From NCBI GenBank assembly GCA_964016885.1, contig OZ024740.1, forward strand, positions 305,598,001-305,662,000: a stretch of DNA of 64,000 bases. Direction: 5' to 3'. Below, one piece after another: positions 10,209 through 61,908 of the stretch. The stretch's first letter is position 1. The number at the start of each line of letters is the position of its first letter. The stretch is from Eledone cirrhosa. Taxonomy: Eukaryota. Made by a program: the position numbers and the translations under genes. The notes under the pieces were generated by a model. That model saw nothing but the letters and a program-made list of their open reading frames with translations. It did no database searches and was not told the DNA's origin.

Positions 10209-10270
<62 letters not shown>

Positions 10271-10276
<6 letters not shown>

Positions 10277-10465
10277 AACAAGTATGACACCGACGGCAGA
10301 GCTCAAGCGGTTCGACGGCTAATTCTGGACCAGAATTAGCCGTCGAAACGGCTTGAGCTATACCGTCGGGGTCATACTTGTTCCTATTACCCACTCTACT
10401 ACCCTAAGTATTGAGTACTTTGGTGCGTTATGGTCCATCTGGTTCCTTACCACATTTCCTTCGTT
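10271..10465. mobile_element. Fold-back Penelope-like insert in (TA)n carrying the 3' half of a hammerhead
   Basis: Palindrome 10271-10387 plus an ~80-nt extension; 'GAAACGGcttgagctataCCGTC'; same family at 41011 and 61872. Confidence 0.7.
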
Positions 10466-10598
10466 ATATATATATATATATTAATTAAACTTTAATCTGT
10501 TATTTTAATAAATATTTGCTCTACGGTTCTTATATATTTGATATATATTTATCCTTATCAAACCCTCTTTCTATTTTAATCTTCAAATTTATTATTAT

Positions 10599-10782: not shown

Positions 10783-10958
10783 GTATATATATAATTATTG
10801 ATATATATAATTATTGATATGTTAGTTTATCACCAACACTTTGTATGCAGGGTAGAGCCCTCTACGAAGTACACAAGTGGGTCTCTTTACTCCGGAGTAT
10901 AATTATAATCCTGAAGTAAAAGTCACCAGCTTATAATTAACTTCATTTGTTCCTAATC

Positions 10959-11017
10959 GGTGTTATATATATTTCGGTGATAATCGTTATGCAACAGTTA
11001 TGACCTCATCAGACAGC
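10959..11017 (-). ncRNA. Minimal type-I hammerhead ribozyme motif
   Basis: Minus strand: gctgt-CTGATGA-ggt...acc-GAAA-t-atat-a-T-A-acacc. Confidence 0.7.
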
Positions 11018-11191
11018 TAAACATTGAACAGAAAAACCAGAAAAACACGTGTGTCCGTTATATCGTGCTGTGACGGTGTGTATGTTCCTGTACTGGTTTG
11101 TGTACGGGTTTTAGTGCAGAGGAGATGAATGTGCACAAGTGTTTTTGTTGTGTGTAAAGGTGAAGATGAAGTTTTAGAGGGACTGGGCTAG

Positions 11192-31655: not shown

Positions 31656-32205
31656 ATGTGCAATAAGAGCAAAATATAACGACATTGCTCAATTATTTTA
31701 TCTAATGTTGTAATAACACAAGGAAATGTTGTTTGTGTATTTTTTTTTATATTTGCTCATAGGCTTTTACAATTTCGCTCAGCCAACAACTATTAAAAAG
31801 TGAGTTGCTTAAGATAACAATTTAATCACAAATTGTTGCTATCTTTTAATACACTCCAACAAGTCATCAAATTATGTACAATAAAAACAAATCTTATTAA
31901 TTTGCTCAGGGAATATAAAGAAAATGTATATACACTGATAATTGCAATTGTATGTAAATATTTTGTTTTTGTATTGTATATTTTATGTTTTCTATTATGT
32001 ATAATATATTGATTTAATATTGATTGTTTTTTGTAGTTGTTTATATTAAAAGTCTGAAAATATTTTTATACATCTTACACTAATATTTATAAGATAATTT
32101 ATAATAACAATTACATAATCTAATTACATTACAACGATAATTTATTATTAATATATATCCTGTTTAACTAGAGTTATTACAAGCGTTGCCTTAAAAAAAT
32201 ATTAA

Positions 32206-33163
32206 ACTAGACATGAAAAATGCGCAAGCTCAAAAGTGCCACAGAATGTTATAATAAACCTTCAAAAGTGTGGGACTAGAGTTGTTGCTAAAAAATATTG
32301 TAATCATTATATATCGTACATTCTGTGGCATCCTTTATAAAAATAGCTTAAACCAACGAAGCCTTTATTTTTACGCTATTTCACTTAGTTAATTCTTAGA
32401 GTGTAACATATAAAAATAAATACATCTATGTTTAATGTAATAACAGCTATAAATAATTACGTAATATTATTATCATATACTCATAGTAACAAAATAATTG
32501 TGTTGAAACTTAATATGATGCTTATATGAACGATCAAATCTATAATGATAATTTCTTAAATATACTAATAGTAAAATAATTTAGTTATCTATTGTTACAT
32601 TTTCATAGAACTATAATATTAACAATCGTATTGCATTATCAAATTTTTATCACTACAAACTTTCATATTGGAATTACCTTAAGCCACTTATTATTACTTC
32701 GCTTTCGTACTTTTACAGCTGTAGATATTGCGCTGTATCTTATATCTAATATCAATATCTCGTGGTAATTTGCATGAAGTGTAAAATAGGTTTATTAATA
32801 ACTTTAATATGAAATGTATTATACAGGGCTGCGGAGTCGGCCAAAAATTGACTGGCTCCAACTCAGGATCCGATACTCCATTATTTCCTAAATTTCAGCT
32901 CCGCAGCTCTGTTATTATATTAATTAATTTATTTTATAGTTGTAAATGATATTTTTATATGTTACACTCTAAGAATTAACTAAGTGAAATAGCGTAAAAA
33001 TAAAGGCTTCGTTGGTTTAAGCTATTTTTATAAAGGATGCCACAGAATGTACGATATATAATGATTACAATATTTTTTAGCAACAACTCTAGTCCCACAC
33101 TTTTGAAGGTTTATTATAACATTCTGTGGCACTTTTGAGCTTGCGCATTTTTCATGTCTAGTA
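32206..33163. repeat. Inverted repeat with ~210-bp near-perfect arms and an ~530-bp spacer
   Basis: 32206-32418 is the reverse complement of 32951-33163. Confidence 0.92.
32823..32911. mobile_element. Tiny hAT-type MITE
   Basis: TIRs cagggctgcggag / ctccgcagctctg. Confidence 0.65.
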
Positions 33164-33554
33164 TATATATAGATTAGTTTTTATATGGTCGTCGAATCTG
33201 TTAGAAATAGCAGCCAAATCACAATGTATTGTCTCAAATCGACACATTGAGAAAAGATACTCTGATTTGACTGCTATTTCTAACATATTCAGCAACCATA
33301 CATTCGATTTATGAAATATCAACCTTAAAGTACGTGTATTTTCTTGAATATTATTTGCTTTGTATTGCTCAAACGATATATGTCTCTTTCTCTCTCTACA
33401 TATATATTTTAACTTGAATTATTGATGCTCTGAACCAAAGCCCATTAAGCTTATTTATTGAGAAACATGATTGTTGCAAGAGCGGGAGGGATCGTCCTGA
33501 CGAGAATAGTTCGAAATGCTCATCGCCGATTACCCCCCTTGTTTATGCTGGACA

Positions 33555-33778: not shown

Positions 33779-33851
<73 letters not shown>

Positions 33852-34069
33852 TTTCTGAATTTGTTTAGCAAGATTCTTTATCTGAAATCGTGTGTTGAAA
33901 CCGATATTGTTATACTTTGGGAGGGTCATGTTGCCAATAAGAAACACACGCACCAGTTGCTTTCACTTCAATTTATTATATATTTATAAATTTATAAATT
34001 TACAAATCTACAAATTTATAAATTTCTGGTTGGTTGGTTGGTTCCACAACCAGATAGTTGTTTATATAT

Positions 34070-34114
34070 AGTCATAGTCCTTTCGTCACACACTCTGTGA
34101 CCTCTTCAGTGACT
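34070..34114 (-). ncRNA. Hammerhead motif, inverted copy
   Basis: Reverse complement of 34229-34273. Confidence 0.75.
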
Positions 34115-34228
34115 GGGGATTCCTTCTTTGTTTCTGTGCCTTTCCTTTCTTCTGTCCTACGCCATTTTGTTTCAAAATGGCTTGGGAGAGAAGAAAGGAA
34201 AGGCACAGAAACAAAGAAAGGAATCCCC

Positions 34229-34273
34229 AGTCACTGAAGAGGTCACAGAGTGTGTGACGAAAGGACTATGACT
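34229..34273 (+). ncRNA. Minimal type-I hammerhead ribozyme motif
   Basis: agtca-CTGAAGA-g-gtcac-agagtgt-gtgac-GAAA-g-ga-c-T-A-tgact. Confidence 0.75.
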
Positions 34274-34431
34274 ATATATAAACAACTATCTGGTTGTGGA
34301 ACCAACCAACCAACCAGAAATTTATAAATTTGTAGATTTGTAAATTTATAAATTTATAAATATATAATAAATTGAAGTGAAAGCAACTGGTGCGTGTGTT
34401 TCTTATTGGCAACATGACCCTCCCAAAGTAT

Positions 34432-34509
<78 letters not shown>

Positions 34510-41010: not shown

Positions 41011-41016
<6 letters not shown>

Positions 41017-41234
41017 CGAAGGAAATGTGGTAAGGAACCAGGTGGACCATAACGCACCAAAGTACTCAATACTTAGGGTAGTAGAGTGGGTAATAGGAAC
41101 GAGTAGGACCCCGACGGCTGAGCTCAAGCCGTTTCGACGGCTAATTCTGGACTCAGTCCAGAATTAGCCGTCGAAACGGCTTGAGCTCAGCCGTCGGGGT
41201 CCTTCTCGTTCCTATATATATATATATTCTCGTT

Positions 41235-41240
<6 letters not shown>
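41011..41240. mobile_element. Fold-back Penelope-like insert, same family as 10271, opposite orientation
   Basis: Palindrome centred near 41152; 'GAAACGGC-ttgagctca-GCCGTC-ggggtc'. Confidence 0.75.
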
Positions 41241-44827: not shown

Positions 44828-45022
44828 GGCGGTGGATTGGCAGTATCGGTAGAGGGTCGGACGCCATGTTTTGACGCATAGAGTTACGGCCCTTGCCATT
44901 CTGAGTTCAAATCCAGCCGAGGTTAACTTCGCCTTTCATCCTTACAGGGTCGATAAAATAAAGTACCAGTCACGCACTGGGGTAATTGCTGACCTTGTGC
45001 CAAAAGTAGAAAGAATTATTAT
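44828..45022 (+). mobile_element. SINE family A, full length
   Basis: tRNA-like head, core 'gaggttaacttcgcctttcatccttacagggtcgataaaataaagtacc', (ATT)n tail. Confidence 0.85.
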
Positions 45023-45129
45023 TACTTTTGTTGTTATTATCAAGGTTGATATTGTTGTTGTTATCAGAGTTGATATTGATGTTATATCACTACTGCCATT
45101 GCTGACATTATTATATCTGTTGTTTTTAA

Positions 45130-46620
45130 TGTTATCATTGCTGTTATTACTGTTCCTATTGTTATTATTACCGTTGTTATCATTGCTGCTATTACTGTTC
45201 CTATTGTTATTATTACCGTTGTTATCATTGTTGTTATTACTGTTCCTATTGTTATTATTACCGTTGTTATCATTGCTGTTATTACTGTTCCTATTGTTAT
45301 TATTACCGTTGTTATCATTGTTGTTATTACTGTTCCTATTGTTATTATTACCGTTGTTATCATTGTTGTTATTACTGTTCCTATTGTTATTATTACCGTT
45401 GTTATCATTGTTGTTATTACTGTTCCTATTGTTATTATTACCGTTGTTATCATTGTTGTTATTACTGTTCCTATTGTTATTATTACCGTTGTTATCATTG
45501 CTGTTATTACTGTTCCTATTGTTATTATTACCGTTGTTATCATTGTTGTTATTACTGTTCCTATTGTTATTATTACCGTTGTTATCATTGTTGTTATTAC
45601 TGTTCCTATTGTTATTATTACCGTTGTTATCATTGTTGTTATTACTGTTCCTATTGTTATTATTACCGTTGTTATCATTGTTGTTATTACTGTTCCTATT
45701 GTTATTATTACCGTTGTTATCATTGTTGTTATTACTGTTCCTATTGTTATTATTACCGTTGTTATCATTGTTGTTATTACTGTTCCTATTGTTATTATTA
45801 CCGTTGTTATCATTGTTGTTATTACTGTTCCTATTGTTATTATTACCGTTGTTATCATTGTTGTTATTACTGTTCCTATTGTTATTATTACCGTTGTTAT
45901 CATTGTTGTTATTACTGTTCCTATTGTTATTATTACCGTTGTTATCATTGTTGTTATTACTGTTCCTATTGTTATTATTACCGTTGTTATCATTGTTGTT
46001 ATTACTGTTCCTATTGTTATTATTACCGTTGTTATCATTGTTGTTATTACTGTTCCTATTGTTATTATTACCGTTGTTATCATTGTTGTTATTACTGTTC
46101 CTGTTGTTATTATTACCGTTGTTATCATTGCTGTTATTACTGTTCCTATTGTTATTATTACCGTTGTTATCATTGTTGTTATTACTGTTCCTATTGTTAT
46201 TATTACCGTTGTTATCATTGTTGTTATTACTGTTCCTATTGTTATTATTACCGTTGTTATCATTGTTGTTATTACTGTTCCTATTGTTATTATTACCGTT
46301 GTTATCATTGTTGTTATTACTGTTCCTATTGTTATTATTACCGTTGTTATCATTGCTGTTATTACTGTTCCTATTGTTATTATTACCGTTGTTATCATTG
46401 TTGTTATTACTGTTCCTATTGTTATTATTACCGTTGTTATCATTGTTGTTATTACTGTTCATGTTGTAATTATTACCGTTGTTATCATTGTTGTTATTAC
46501 TGTTCCTATTGTTATTATTACCGTTGTTATCATTGTTGTTATTACTGTTCCTATTGTTATTATTACCGTTGTTATCATTGTTGTTATTACTGTTCCTATT
46601 GTTATTATTACCGTTGTTAC
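45130..46620. repeat. 39-bp minisatellite, about 38 copies
   Basis: Unit 'gttatcattgttgttattactgttcctattgttattattacc'; gives 13-aa periodic pseudo-ORFs. Confidence 0.97.
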
Positions 46621-47099
46621 CATTGCTGTTGTTACTATTGTTATTATTTTTATTGCTGTTGTTGTTATTACTGTTATCATTGTTTTGTTACCATTATTGT
46701 TGTTACTGTTGTTATTGTTGTCGTTACTGGTGTTATTGTTATTGATATTGTTACTGTTACTATTGTTATTGTTACTGTTGTTATTATTGCTCTTATTACT
46801 GTTGTTGTTACTGTTGTCATCATTGTTGTGGTTACTGTTGTTGGTGTTATTGTTACTGTTGTTATTATTGCAGTTATTACTGCTGTTATTACTTCTTATT
46901 ACTGTTCTTATTGCTTTTTATTACTCTCGTTATTGCTTTTTATTGCTGTTGTTATTACTGTTGTTATTACTGTCGTTATTACGGGGGGGGGTAGGAGTGG
47001 GGGGGGGGGGTTTAAAAGAAACTGGTTCAGCGCACATTTCGTGTCACTCTATATTAATTTTCTAACTGATTAAGCTTAAATTTCAAGATATAGCAGATA

Positions 47100-55514: not shown

Positions 55515-55518
<4 letters not shown>

Positions 55519-56117
55519 TTTGAGTTTATGTTGGTTGTATACCAACACCTCAGTATGCAGGCTGGAGCACTCGACGAAGTGCGCAGGTTGGTTTGGTTAC
55601 TCCGGAGTAGTGTAAAATAAAGTTAAATAAAAGTCAAATGATTAAAATTTAGCTTCGTTTATTACTGCTATATATATTTCAGTGATAGAATTCTATAGAC
55701 TTCTGACTGAGGAATGCTCTCAGAACTGAACAATGGGAAGTTTGACACATTTTTTGATATTTTGTTCCTTCAACACCTTGTCCCTTCTACCATTTTATCA
55801 ATTTTTAAGCTAACTCCAACAATGACAACACTAATAACTGACCAATGAGAGGAGAAGGGGACCTGTGACACTAAAATTCGTTTGTTTGAATTCATATGAC
55901 TCCAGTTCCCCAGTGAATTAACAACCCAACAAGGAACTGGGCATATCAGAGTATTGACAATATCATACACCTAAACAACATATGTACTTGTCTATACCAT
56001 ACTAATTCAAACTGCCTGAAGAGGTCACAGCCAAAGATGGCTGTCACTGAAATATATATAGCAGTAATAAACGAAGCTAAATTTTAATCATTTGACTTTT
56101 ATTTAACTTTATTTTAT
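55515..56117 (+). mobile_element. Penelope-like insert with inverted, extended 5' pLTR, in (TA)n
   Basis: 55613-55685 is the reverse complement of 56044-56116; hammerhead at 56011; second copy at 58605-58803. Confidence 0.8.
56011..56065 (+). ncRNA. Minimal type-I hammerhead ribozyme
   Basis: actgc-CTGAAGA-ggt-c-acagcca-aaga-tggctgt-c-act-GAAA-t-atat-a-T-A-gcagt, followed by aataaa. Confidence 0.85.
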
Positions 56118-58302: not shown

Positions 58303-58404
58303 CGCTACACAGCATCCTCCTAGAATAGAAGCTATAGAGCAGGCATGTCAATCATACGGCCCGCGGGCTGCATGATTGACATGCCTGCTCTATAGCTTCT
58401 ATTC
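58303..58404. repeat. ~100-bp palindrome containing a hAT terminus
   Basis: gctacacagcatcctcctagaatagaagctatagagCAGGCATGTCAATCAT followed by its reverse complement. Confidence 0.9.
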
Positions 58405-58696
58405 TAGGAGGATGCTGTGTAGCTAATTGCTTATTTTAACCTGTAATCCATGTTTCATTTCTGTCGCACTTCTTTTCTCCCCCTCTCCCTCTTCCTCTTT
58501 TTCTCTCTGTGATGAATCTATGTTTTGGGCTTACTTTATTCATATATATGTTTTTGTATGTCAGTTAATATTCAAACTTACAACGATTGGCATTATATAT
58601 GAAACAACAAACCAACCAGGAACTGGGCATATCAGAGTATTGACAAAGTTATACACCTCAACAACATGTGAACTCGTCCCTACCACACTAATTTGG

Positions 58697-58751
58697 ACTG
58701 CCTGAAGAGCTCACAGCCAAAGATGGCTGTCACCGAAATATATATAGCAGT
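58697..58751 (+). ncRNA. Minimal type-I hammerhead, second copy of the 56011 family
   Basis: actgc-CTGAAGA-gctcacagccaaagatggctgtcacc-GAAA-tatatata-gcagt-aataaa; element spans 58605-58803. Confidence 0.83.
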
Positions 58752-58797
58752 AATAAACGAAGCCAAATTTTAAATATTTGACTTATTTATTTTAATT

Positions 58798-58858
<61 letters not shown>

Positions 58859-58861
<3 letters not shown>

Positions 58862-59497
58862 TTAAGTCGTTTGGAAGCCTCGACAATGCAGATAGGTAAA
58901 TCTCCGGGTAACAGGATCCGGTGGTAGAGAGAGAGATGTAAGTGGGTGTACGTTGAGATGCGTGGCGTGTATAAGACGTGTAGAGGAATGAAGGATAAAG
59001 CGTAAAGGATAAAAATAAAAATAACAACACGAGAGAGAGAGAGTTACCTTGGGAGAGATTTAATTGTCCCTATATATTTCGGATTCACATCCATCAACTG
59101 GGGGTATTTTCCGGGGTGGGGGAAAGGTTGTCTGTTCAAAACAACGAACAGCGGAGGACACGTTTCGAACCTTTCCGACAGACAACCTTTCCCCCACCCC
59201 GGAAAATACCCCAGTTGATGGATGTGAATCCGAAATATATAAGGACAATTAAATCTCTCCCAAGGTAACTCTCTCTCGTGTTGTTATTTTTATTTTTATC
59301 CTTTACGCTCTATCCTTCATTCCTCTACACGTCTTATACACGCCACGCATCTCAACGTACACCCACTTACATCTCTCTCTCTACCACCGGATCTTGTTAC
59401 CCGGAGATTTACCCATCTGCATTGTCGAGGCTTCCAAACGACTTAAAGAAATTTACCTTATTATTCCACAATGCTTCAAGCAAACTTCAATACTCTC
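58859..59497. mobile_element. Fold-back insert (~275-bp arms) between (TA)n tracts with a hammerhead 3' half
   Basis: 58859-59134 mirrors 59178-59449; right arm extends ~50 nt; 'cGAAAtatataaggac-aattaaa'. Confidence 0.7.
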
Positions 59498-59530
<33 letters not shown>

Positions 59531-59626
59531 GGAGTTGCGACCGATAGATAGTACTAGCAACTGGAAAGACCGACGGAAACATTGTTTCCTCGGTCCGATT
59601 TGATGAAAGTCGATCGATCCTTTTAT

Positions 59627-60620
59627 ATATAATTTGTTTGTTAAAATAATTAAATTAAATTAATTCAACAGATAAACACACATAGGAATAATAAGGTTGT
59701 TACCAAAGAGCCAGAAGATTGACAAGTCGACCCTAAATATGACTAGTAGCTCTAGGAAAGCCATGAACAACACCACATCTTTTTAACTTTGATTTTGAAA
59801 GTAGGTTTATGATTATTAATTTTAATCATACTTTTGTAGCTGTCTCGGTAGCCTAGTTGGAGGGATCATAGAAGGTGCTAATCCTGGTCTGAAGTTCAAT
59901 CCCGGTCGGGGGTAGGGTTGGTTGTAAAGTTTTTCAGTTTTTTTCAATGGGATGTAAAATAAAAACTGAAAAAGATTACATGTACTTCTTGACCAGGATT
60001 GAACCCAAGACAAGGATCTCCACCGTCTCTAGTACATGCCCTGAGACAGCTACGAAAATCTTATGAAAATTCAAACTTATAAACCTACTTTCAAAATTTT
60101 CAATACAAAATGATGTGGTGTCGTTCATGTCTTTCTTAATGTTATTGCTCCTACTTAAGGTCGACTTCTAAATCATTTGGGTGTTCCTTAAACTACATCC
60201 TCGTTTTGTTTCTCATCTATCTAGACTATATTTTAATCTGTAATCCATGTTTCATTTCTGCCCCCCCCCTCTCTGTCTCTCTCTCTCCCTCTCTTTCTCT
60301 CTCTCTGTGATATTTGAATCTACTATGATTTGCATGTCAGTTTGATTAAAACTTACAATGATTGACATTATATATATAAATTATTTGTTTGTTAAAATAA
60401 TTAAATTAAATTAATTCAACAATTATACACACATAAGAATAATAAGCTTGTTACCAAAGAGCCAGAAGATTGACAAGTCGACCCTAAATATGACTAATAG
60501 CTCTAGGAAAGCCATAACGACATCACATCTTTTTAACTTTGATTTTGAAAGTAGGTTTATAATTATTCATTTTCATTATACTTTTGTAGATGTCTCGGTG
60601 GCCTAGTTGGAAGAATCATA
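59627..60620. repeat. Diverged inverted-repeat element with tRNA-like heads, plus a direct duplication of its left arm
   Basis: 59715-59910 vs 59985-60175 inverted; 59627-59870 duplicated at 60375-60620. Confidence 0.7.
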
Positions 60621-60647
60621 GATCTTTTCTCTGTCATCTATCTAGAC

Positions 60648-61082
60648 CAGGAATGCCATACATGCAGCTCAAAGGCCGCATGCGGCTCTTTGCAAGCACA
60701 CATGCGGCCCGCACAAAGTTTCTTACAGCGCGAGCATGTTTTATCTTCGTAATATAAAATAAACATTTTTCGATATGATTGTTTTTTTTGTGCGATTTTA
60801 GTCATCTACTTTTAACTTCCGACGAATCACGTGCAGCTCATTAAAAGTTGTAAACAGAAAACTTTCTTTCAAAATTTCAAAAGTTTTTCTTTTAAAATGG
60901 CTAGTGCTCCTCCAGCTAAGAGAAAGAGGAAATTGAACGAAGAAGGGCGAGTGTTTCAAGAAAAGTAGGAATTACAGTATTTTTGTACAACGGTGAACGA
61001 AAAGATACACTGTTTAATTTGCAACAACTGCATCGCCACGCCAAAAGAGTACAATTTGAAAAGGCATTATGAAACGAACCAT
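60648..61082 (+). mobile_element. hAT (SPIN/Charlie/GTF2IRD2-like) 5' fragment
   Basis: Starts 'caggaatgcc' after tctagac, with tgcggc subterminal repeats; 60897-61082 reads MASAPPAKRKRKLNEEGRVFQEK*ELQYF...CLICNNCIATPKEYNLKRHYETNH (BED finger). Confidence 0.88.
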
Positions 61083-61199
61083 CAATGTTCAATTTTGAAC
61101 TGATGTAATTTTTGTACAATGTATTTGTTGCTGTTGCAAGCTGCAAGTATATGTTGCCCTTTAAAATTTTAGTTTTGCTCTTGTGTTGGCATGTAAACA

Positions 61200-61249
61200 G
61201 AACTGCAGACACTAATGTTTCTGGGTATCGCCCTTCATCAGTACAGCTC
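61200..61249 (-). ncRNA. Type-I hammerhead ribozyme, left arm
   Basis: Minus strand: gagctgta-CTGATGA-a-ggg-cgata-ccc-a-GAAACA-ttag-TGTC-tgcagttc. Confidence 0.8.
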
Positions 61250-61536
61250 ACTGTTCACCTGCCAACTGTCAGAGCTAGTGAAAATATATATTTTCTAAAA
61301 TATACAGTTACTGATCGGCCTGATTTGCATATTAGCAGACTGGCTGATCAGTCAGATCTGCATATTAGCAGATCCAGTCTGCTGATATGCAAATCCGGCT
61401 GATCAGTGGATCTGCTAATATGCAGATCTGACTGATCAGCCAGTCAACTAATATGCAAATTAGGTCGATCAGTCACTGTATATTTTAGAAAATAGCATAT
61501 ATTTTCACTAGCTCTGACAGTTGGCAGGTGAACAGT

Positions 61537-61586
61537 GAACTGTACTGATGAAGAGTAATACCCAGAAACATTAGTGTCTGCAGTTC
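61537..61586 (+). ncRNA. Type-I hammerhead ribozyme, right arm
   Basis: gaactgta-CTGATGA-agagtaataccca-GAAACA-ttag-TGTC-tgcagttc; 8-bp stem I, GUC cleavage site. Confidence 0.8.
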
Positions 61587-61832
61587 TGTTTACAAGCCAA
61601 CACAATAGCAAGAATGAAGGTTTCATTCTACTGACTTGGCTTTAAAAATGAGGCTTGTTTGCATAATTGCAAACGAATCGAATGTTATTATTAATATTCG
61701 AAAAACTCAGATTACATTTATTTGTACTTTTTCAATTTTCAACGGAAACTTCAATACTTATATATATATATATATAAATATATATATGTATACCTACATA
61801 TATATCAGTGTATGCATATGTGTGTGTGTGTT

Positions 61833-61871
<39 letters not shown>

Positions 61872-61874
<3 letters not shown>

Positions 61875-61908
61875 TTGAGCTCAGCCGTCGGGGTCCTACT
61901 CGTTCCTA
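61872..61908 (+). mobile_element. Extreme 3' fragment of the 10271/41011 family, in (TA)n
   Basis: 'ggcttgagctcagccgtcggggtcctactcgttccta' flanked by (TA)n. Confidence 0.75.

What the first reader, a model, noticed from the sequence alone, without database searches (positions are those of the whole stretch)
10271..10465. Asymmetric palindromes share a fixed short-arm end, implying an insertion mechanism
Seen: in this family the short arm stops at '...gttccta|tata' at 10271 and 41214, as does the solo fragment at 61908, while the long arm runs ~80 nt further in both palindromic copies. The same geometry recurs in other families: 56117 and 58803 both end 'ttatttta|tata' with the inverted arm extended to ~55515; 34437 vs 33850; 58859 vs 59497. 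Inference: priming at a (TA)n nick starts at a defined RNA position, and a second inverted cDNA comes from a template extending past that end (tandem or circular RNA), like the 'tail' of Penelope inverted pLTRs.
Basis: partly seen in the sequence, partly recalled or inferred. Interest (0 to 1): 0.75.

Follow-up and report, generated by a model that had tools for sequence, protein, structure and literature searches.

The report
Penelope one-short-one-long run-off palindromes
These lopsided mirror-image inserts are stubs of a Penelope-type jumping gene, and 98% of about 10,000 copies pair one short arm with one arm that carries an 80-base extension, likely because both cut DNA strands copy the same RNA from two fixed start points until they run off its predicted start.

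Summary
Real, not an artefact. The repeat at 10275-10464 is the end of the pseudo-LTR plus an 80-nt 'tail' of a 3.6-kb Hydra-clade Penelope-like element (PLE) that inserts in (TA)n. Arms end at two fixed sites, +58 (S) and +138 (L). Genome-wide exact-pattern counts: 10,060 S+extended, 75 S+S and 80 extended+extended palindromes; independent choice predicts about 2,550 of each symmetric class. The palindromes look built anew each time: 73 distinct centres in 90 copies. Both arms carry the same subfamily in 86 of 89 (65% mixed expected). The short arm reaches further 5' in 29 of 90, which argues against fold-back. Arms stop at a wall around an initiator-like TC|AGT inside the hammerhead loop, and a Poseidon-type family in the window shows the same kind of wall. 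Best reading: twin priming of one RNA from two sites, run-off at the transcript start, then end-joining. Tandem or circular RNA is needed only for long copies. Inverted pLTR, one-sided tail and two internal start sites are published; the near-strict one-short-one-long rule and the run-off class were not found in six literature searches. No RNA evidence was obtained.

The parts
10213..10274 (.). (TA)n target run, left flank
   Evidence: sequence
10275..10330 (-). Family A short arm: element positions +2 to +58, ending at site S
10330..10384 (+). Family A long arm, positions +4 to +58; holds the 3' half of a hammerhead (GAAAC, stem III, GUC at +41), uncut
10385..10464 (+). 80-nt tail, +59 to +138 (5' untranslated leader of the parent; ATG at +232), ending at site L
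10465..10481 (.). (TA)n target run, right flank
41016..41153 (-). Second family A copy: long arm +1 to +138 (tail at 41016-41095)
41154..41154 (+). One extra base between two arms that both reach +1; a C on the long-arm cDNA strand, not templated in this subfamily (T at -1); cap-copy-like (inference)
41155..41212 (+). Second copy: short arm +1 to +58
41227..41236 (+). 10-nt repeat of the S end inside the TA run (likely an abortive second start at S)
61872..61906 (+). Solo family A fragment +24 to +58 between TA runs
55516..56116 (.). Family B (Hydra-type PLE) palindrome: long arm with 97-nt tail 55516-55688 (-), short-ended arm 55689-56116 (+) with hammerhead core at 56016
58600..58804 (+). 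Family B relative, single arm ending at the short site; hammerhead core at 58702
33850..34436 (.). Family C palindrome, long end 33850, short end 34436, 57-nt extension; parent not found
58860..59497 (.). Family D (Penelope/Poseidon-type PLE) palindrome, short end 58860, long end 59497

Best explanation
These are insertions of a Hydra-clade Penelope-like retrotransposon in (TA)n, likely made when the two nicked target strands each prime reverse transcription on the same RNA molecule, one at +58 and one at +138, and both copies run off the RNA's predicted capped 5' end and are joined head to head. Shown: the parent element, the two fixed ends, the one-short-one-long rule, the variable centres, the 5' wall, matching subfamily in both arms. 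Inferred: that +1 (TC|AGT, TATTTAAA at -29) is the transcription start; that one RNA serves both arms (the trailing enzyme would displace the first cDNA); that two active sites of one particle hold the two start sites, which would explain why S+S and L+L are rare; that host end-joining seals the centre. A transcript starting at +1 lacks the 5' half of the hammerhead, so its leader would stay uncut at +41. Long copies come from a template that continues upstream of +1 (uncut read-through or circular RNA).
For: Parent: ORF with RT and C-terminal GIY-YIG, 3,629-nt tandem unit, tail continuing into the next unit. Pairing: 10,060 S+extended vs 75 and 80 symmetric (expectation 2,551 and 2,556); 8 of 8 long inverted pairs with two terminal ends are S+L; all 12 partner arms seen in family B loci and 6 of 6 in D are short (the queries forced the long arm). 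De novo build: 73 centre strings in 90, the commonest in four subfamilies. Two independent cDNAs: S reaches further 5' in 29 of 90, both reach +2 or beyond in 19 of 90, A/T runs and short inserts at centres. One RNA: arms differ in subfamily in 3 of 89 (2 of them single-base differences) vs 65% expected; 4 of 15 in the extended+extended class, Fisher p 0.008. Wall: of 180 arms 168 have their 5' end between -8 and +9, none beyond -8; in the subfamily where templated and untemplated bases can be told apart, 3 of 35 pass +1; arms that pass -7 run on for a median of about 540 nt (29 of 30 measured). Family D: 13 of 18 arms stop within -2..+9 of TC|AGAT. Published biochemistry of another PLE: both strands nicked and extended, two internal start sites that bound the tail, ribozyme cleavage not needed, dimer predicted (PMC11167929); D. 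virilis transcript starts inside the upstream pLTR (PMC2377424).
Against: No transcript data: +1 as start site rests on motifs and on the wall. The cap signature is thin: 5 C among 12 informative bases after +1. The mini pattern only admits centres of limited length, so the wall is seen through a window of about 10-16 nt upstream of +1. Near-full-length copies almost never stop at +1; by eye nearly all of the 32 overlapping loci mapped run into an upstream pLTR, so the same wall does not hold for them. A strong-stop jump leaving a cap mismatch at -1 was tested and not seen (13 purines vs 4,481 pyrimidines). Same-subfamily arms could also come from two RNAs of one active locus, or from later conversion between arms. 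L reaches further 5' more often than S (50 vs 29). The wall lies inside hammerhead loop II next to an AG that resembles a splice acceptor.
Confidence: 0.65

Rival explanations
1. Same twin priming from two sites, but the arms stop because the enzyme stalls in hammerhead stem/loop II or at an RNA processing end, not at a transcription start; the template is tandem or circular RNA throughout (closest to the first reader's version).
For: The wall lies in loop II of the predicted hammerhead. Full-length copies run past +1, and pLTR copies within one insertion share more variants than between insertions (1.7 vs 0.3 per pair; some pairs overlap), as a circle would give. Circular templates were proposed in PMC4209133.
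Against: The stop is in a single-stranded loop after the stem's 3' strand is already copied; the ribozyme cut site (+41) is not a boundary; a splice end would fall at +3 but 61 of 180 arms reach +1 or beyond; family D has the same wall at an initiator-like motif with no hammerhead core found there.
Confidence: 0.17
2. One cDNA starts at L, runs to the RNA end, folds back and copies itself as far as S, where it is cut and joined (self-priming, as suggested for head-to-head PLE palindromes in PMC3846280).
For: Gives strict asymmetry and same-subfamily arms at no extra cost; L reaches further in 50 of 90; 35 of 90 centres have 1-4 nt of overlap.
Against: A fold-back arm cannot hold sequence 5' of its own priming point, yet S reaches further in 29 of 90 and both arms reach +2 or beyond in 19 of 90; some pairs join arms of different subfamilies (L102, L176, L180, L186, L188), and one locus joins a family-A-like short arm to a family D arm (L277); S also ends long direct tandems.
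Confidence: 0.12
3. The 190-bp palindrome is a non-autonomous unit (MITE- or SINE-like) copied whole from a few masters.
For: The 40 best hits of a similarity search are near-identical 193-197-bp units; some centres recur (6 of 90).
Against: 73 centres in 90 unbiased copies; recurring centres cross subfamilies; both arms track the parent's subfamilies; the same ends bound kilobase insertions.
Confidence: 0.04
4. Fold-back chimeras from long-read sequencing or assembly.
For: Perfect palindromes next to (TA)n are a known trouble spot (recalled). No long reads were available to lay.
Against: Arms differ by point changes and lie in unique flanks. Illumina reads of three other samples (one study) show the S end in 1,688, 1,460 and 1,405 reads and one centre-spanning copy in 51, 61 and 78 reads; contigs of another organism show both TA-flanked ends and a centre junction (X5).
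Confidence: 0.01

Closest known systems
EN+ Penelope-like insertions with inverted 5'-truncated pLTR and one-sided tail (PMC8557442 Fig. 2 legend; PMC3846280; PMC2377424; passages read)
   Same: [quoted passage not shown]
   Different: Tail is 80 nt (A) and 97 nt (B) against 30-40 nt; one-sidedness is a near-strict rule (98.5%); the commonest product is a 190-bp stub with both arms ending at one 5' wall.
Hydra clade PLEs (PMC8557442 section 11 and supplement; includes Hydra-1_Obim)
   Same: RW(K/R), DKT, CxCX5C linker, CxxC and CxH around E and N, no CCHH, (TA)n target, hammerhead in the pLTR.
   Different: 3.6 kb with a 1.2-kb 3' region against 'generally <3 kb'; U3-A8 hammerhead core with a long stem III; four short family strings were absent from the supplement, so a family not listed there.
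PAc (Poseidon, Anolis) in vitro mechanism (PMC11167929, main text read)
   Same: Two internal reverse-transcription start sites bounding the tail, AT-rich target, both strands cut and extended, uncut RNA as template.
   Different: There no difference in start site between strands was noted and coupling within one insertion was not addressed; sites are non-homologous to the target and inside the ORF, here both are followed by UAU (3-nt match to the target) and lie in the 5' leader.
L1 twin priming (Ostertag and Kazazian 2001; recalled, only the citation seen)
   Same: Both target strands prime on one RNA; the cDNAs are joined by microhomology.
   Different: In L1 the second start is random and the two cDNAs cover different RNA parts; here both starts are fixed and the cDNAs overlap, which gives a palindrome.

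Membership tests
EN+ Penelope-like element | Single ORF with RT and GIY-YIG endonuclease | tested here: met
   RT motifs (FDIESYY, YRDD) and VIYQC..YIG in stored loci, longest open stretch 678 aa; 2,143 homologues at E<=1e-20, nearly all unnamed. Pfam and PDB sequence scans gave no hit, so this rests on motifs and on the published alignment. No fully intact ORF was seen in the loci read.
EN+ Penelope-like element | Partial tandems forming pLTRs, inverted 5'-truncated copy | tested here: met
EN+ Penelope-like element | Tail extension on one end, 30-40 bp | tested here: met
   Present and one-sided, but 80 nt; family D has the usual 40 nt
EN+ Penelope-like element | Hammerhead motif in the pLTR | tested here: inconclusive
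   Type I layout with UUGANAA core, GAAAC, GUC at +41; position 7 varies (T/G/C) among 76 long arms while the rest is held; the U3-A8 swap is described in PMC4209133. Rfam gave no hammerhead hit and the fold is not the lowest-energy one in 2 of 3. Cleavage not testable.
Hydra clade | RWK motif and DKT in place of DKG | tested here: met
   RLRWR and HSDKT in A, HADKT in B; 85 and 89 of 90 long homologues, DKG 0 of 90
Hydra clade | CxCX5C linker; CxxC and CxH around E and N; no CCHH | tested here: met
   CNCPDRSSC, CNLCSEE, CKH; criteria
Hydra clade | Insertion into (TA)n | tested here: met
Hydra clade | Placement in the clade by RT phylogeny | not tested
   Reference proteins were only seen as text in the supplement; similarity judged by eye
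Non-LTR retrozyme | Tandem head-to-tail units each with a whole type I hammerhead | tested here: not met
   Minis are head-to-head and hold only the 3' half of the ribozyme; definition
MITE | Terminal inverted repeats and a fixed unit copied whole | tested here: not met
   Ends are asymmetric; 73 centres in 90 copies

The most novel reading that the evidence does not exclude
A Penelope particle reads one RNA twice: two active sites sit at two fixed points of the same 5' leader, each serves one target strand, and the usual outcome is a double run-off at the cap. The tail is then the ruler between the two active sites, and the promoter sits inside the ribozyme so that the leader cannot cut itself. 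The rule would hold across clades (Hydra A and B, Poseidon-type D).
Probability: 0.45. Interest if true: 0.72.

Novelty: new variant of a known kind. Interest (0 to 1): 0.52.

Why it matters
How PLEs make inverted pLTRs and a one-sided tail is named as open in PMC8557442 and PMC11167929. Ten thousand natural products give a number any model must meet (98.5% one short plus one extended arm, arms from one subfamily) and turn it into a simple two-RNA mixing test in an existing in vitro system. The walls also predict transcription starts from DNA alone. In practice these hairpins are real repeat sequence, and should be annotated as PLE stubs, not as MITEs, microRNA precursors or assembly errors.

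Tried and rejected
Cap-mismatch signature of a retrovirus-like strong-stop jump: 13 long arms with a purine at -1 (8 G, 5 A) against 4,481 with a pyrimidine; not supported. RNA evidence: no RNA holder listed. Homodimer prediction for residues 1-424: no verdict. Rfam: only sub-threshold microRNA-type hits on hairpins and simple repeats in the window, no hammerhead family. Pfam and PDB sequence scans blank; protein atlas unavailable. Family C genome search returned nothing, not even the window itself, so it is uninformative; C was read from incidental copies only and its parent is unknown. My first junction scoring allowed mismatches near +1 and inflated a peak at -4; replaced. First clade guess, Neptune, dropped after reading the Hydra criteria. 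A GAAACGCGTC string on the opposite strand of family D has no CUGANGA partner and was not called a ribozyme. Target-site duplications cannot be read inside (TA)n. The RAD reads end at AATT next to the palindrome centre, so they cannot test most centres; X1/X2 may be the assembled sample and are not counted as independent.

Full report
Observation. A self-comparison of the window finds the family at 10275-10464, 41016-41212 and 61872-61906. All three short ends are GTTCC followed by TA repeats, and both long arms run exactly 80 nt further. Families B, C and D show the same layout with extensions of 97, 57 and 40-49 nt. The genome is about 3.0 Gb; a SINE in the window looks like an octopus SINE (recalled, not tested).

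Parent element. An internal 25-mer has 2,405 exact matches. [quoted passage not shown] Near-full-length loci give a 3,629-nt tandem unit. Numbering from the A of TC|AGTCC as +1: predicted hammerhead from about -47 to +45 with its cut at +41, short end S at +58, long end L at +138, ATG at +232. The protein carries every motif listed for the Hydra clade in PMC8557442 section 11, as do most long homologues. The supplement lists one octopus Hydra family, a different one. Family B is also Hydra-type (41% identical) and shares TATCTAGCTCC right after its long end with family A. Family D lies downstream of a Poseidon-type RT and endonuclease in three loci. No parent was found for C.

Two fixed ends. 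Among 112 arms from searches that did not demand an end, 50 stop at S and 40 at L, 9 more within 6 nt of S; the rest are scattered, run through, or are alignment breaks. Both sites are followed by TAT, a 3-nt match to the target, but the TAT at +83 and +103 is unused, so the match alone does not pick the site.

The pairing rule. A pattern for mini-palindromes has 11,233 matches. Stricter versions give 10,060 with one S arm and one arm entering the tail, 75 S+S and 80 with both arms entering the tail; independent choice predicts 2,551 and 2,556. All are exact-match lower bounds. Of the first 50 listed minis (all fetched), 46 are S plus L, 3 are S plus another tail end, 1 is S+S. Of 15 of the 80 double-extended loci, only 6 have both arms at L. 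Long inverted insertions follow the rule in 8 of 8 pairs with two terminal ends; 4 further pairs ran into another unit or were unclear.

Built anew, from two cDNAs, on one template. I scored 90 minis: those 50, plus 40 of the 57 further places listed. They have 73 distinct centres, and the commonest centre occurs in four subfamilies. The short arm reaches further 5' in 29, the long in 50, equal in 11; both reach +2 or beyond in 19; centres show 1-4 nt overlaps (35), blunt joins (16) or inserts (39), some of them A/T runs or copies of nearby sequence. That fits two separate first-strand cDNAs joined by repair, and does not fit fold-back. Arms carry the same subfamily in 86 of 89 against 35% expected at random; mixed arms are commoner in the double-extended class (4 of 15).

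The 5' wall. Of 180 arms, 168 end between -8 and +9 and none passes -8. Apparent ends at -1 to -4 come mostly from subfamilies with TTT upstream, where added A's mimic template; in the TTC subfamily 3 of 35 pass +1. Arms that do pass -7 (4,481 genome-wide) continue for hundreds of bases. The wall sits on an initiator-like TCAGT with TATTTAAA 29 nt upstream (motifs recalled; a TATA plus initiator in a pLTR is described in PMC3846280). The window's second copy has both arms at +1 with one extra base that reads C on the long cDNA, as copying a cap would give (recalled signature); across the sample only 5 of 12 informative bases are C. Family D arms stop at TCAGAT in 13 of 18. Contig depth in two runs steps up about tenfold at +1 and down some hundredfold after +138, in line with this though depth there is no copy number.

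Long copies. Near-full-length copies nearly always continue into an upstream pLTR rather than stopping at +1, and pLTR copies inside one insertion share more variants than copies from different insertions. They need a more-than-unit template or a jump. A jump that leaves a cap mismatch at -1 was looked for and not found. Circular against read-through RNA stays open.

Artefact check. Short reads from three other samples of the same species label (one study) show the S end and one centre-spanning copy; a second organism's contigs show both ends and a centre junction.

Literature. Read: PMC11167929 parts 1-2 of 4; PMC4209133 parts 1-2 of 4; PMC8557442 abstract, passages, section 11 and supplement searches; passages of PMC3846280 and PMC2377424; part 1 of 5 of bioRxiv 10.64898/2026.07.22.740005; only the citation of the L1 twin-priming paper. 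The inverted pLTR, the one-sided tail and two internal start sites are published. Six searches of an open-access library found no count of S/L pairing and no run-off class; subscription papers and the supplements of PMC11167929 were not seen and may bear on this. Earlier AI notes of this scan reach a similar twin-priming reading; I formed mine before seeing them, and they are not support.

Verdict. A new Hydra-clade PLE family showing a known insertion shape in an unusually countable form. The element class is ordinary; the near-strict coupling and the shared 5' wall are the useful part, and the mechanism drawn from them is inferred.

Noticed in passing
window 10810-11025 (-): Another PLE end related to family B (76%), with a canonical CUGAUGA hammerhead core at 11012 and a tail ending near a TA run.
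   Followed up: partly
window 61175-61611: 437-bp palindrome with a CUGAUGA hammerhead core on each strand (61241, 61545), not flanked by (TA)n; likely a PLE of another target type.
   Followed up: partly
L115 +139..+149 and L304 (families A and B): The same 11-mer TATCTAGCTCC follows the long end in two Hydra families with otherwise unlike leaders, and a TACT...AGTA stem follows the short end in both; candidate protein-binding sites.
   Followed up: partly
L277:1270-1320: A family-A-like short arm is joined head to head to a family D arm (Hydra-like with Poseidon-type), a possible cross-family pairing or nested insertion.
   Followed up: no
window 58804-58860, and loci L006, L026, L077, L118, L165: Different PLE families repeatedly share one TA run, so each insertion seems to leave targets for the next.
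   Followed up: no
window 59624-60622: Partial tandem (59624-59872 repeated at 60375-60622) around a diverged palindrome 59711-60180; PLE-like layout, not identified.
   Followed up: no
window 32199-33170 and 58304-58423: A 216-bp perfect inverted repeat with a 531-bp spacer, and a 120-bp palindrome near hAT-like sequence at about 60650-61100; probably DNA transposon derivatives.
   Followed up: no
window 45016-46981: About 2 kb tandem array of a 45-bp unit rich in (TTA/TTG)n.
   Followed up: no
C14 loci L108/L109 and L112/L113: The same complex tandem-plus-inverted insertion appears twice about 300 kb apart; segmental duplication or duplicated haplotype.
   Followed up: no
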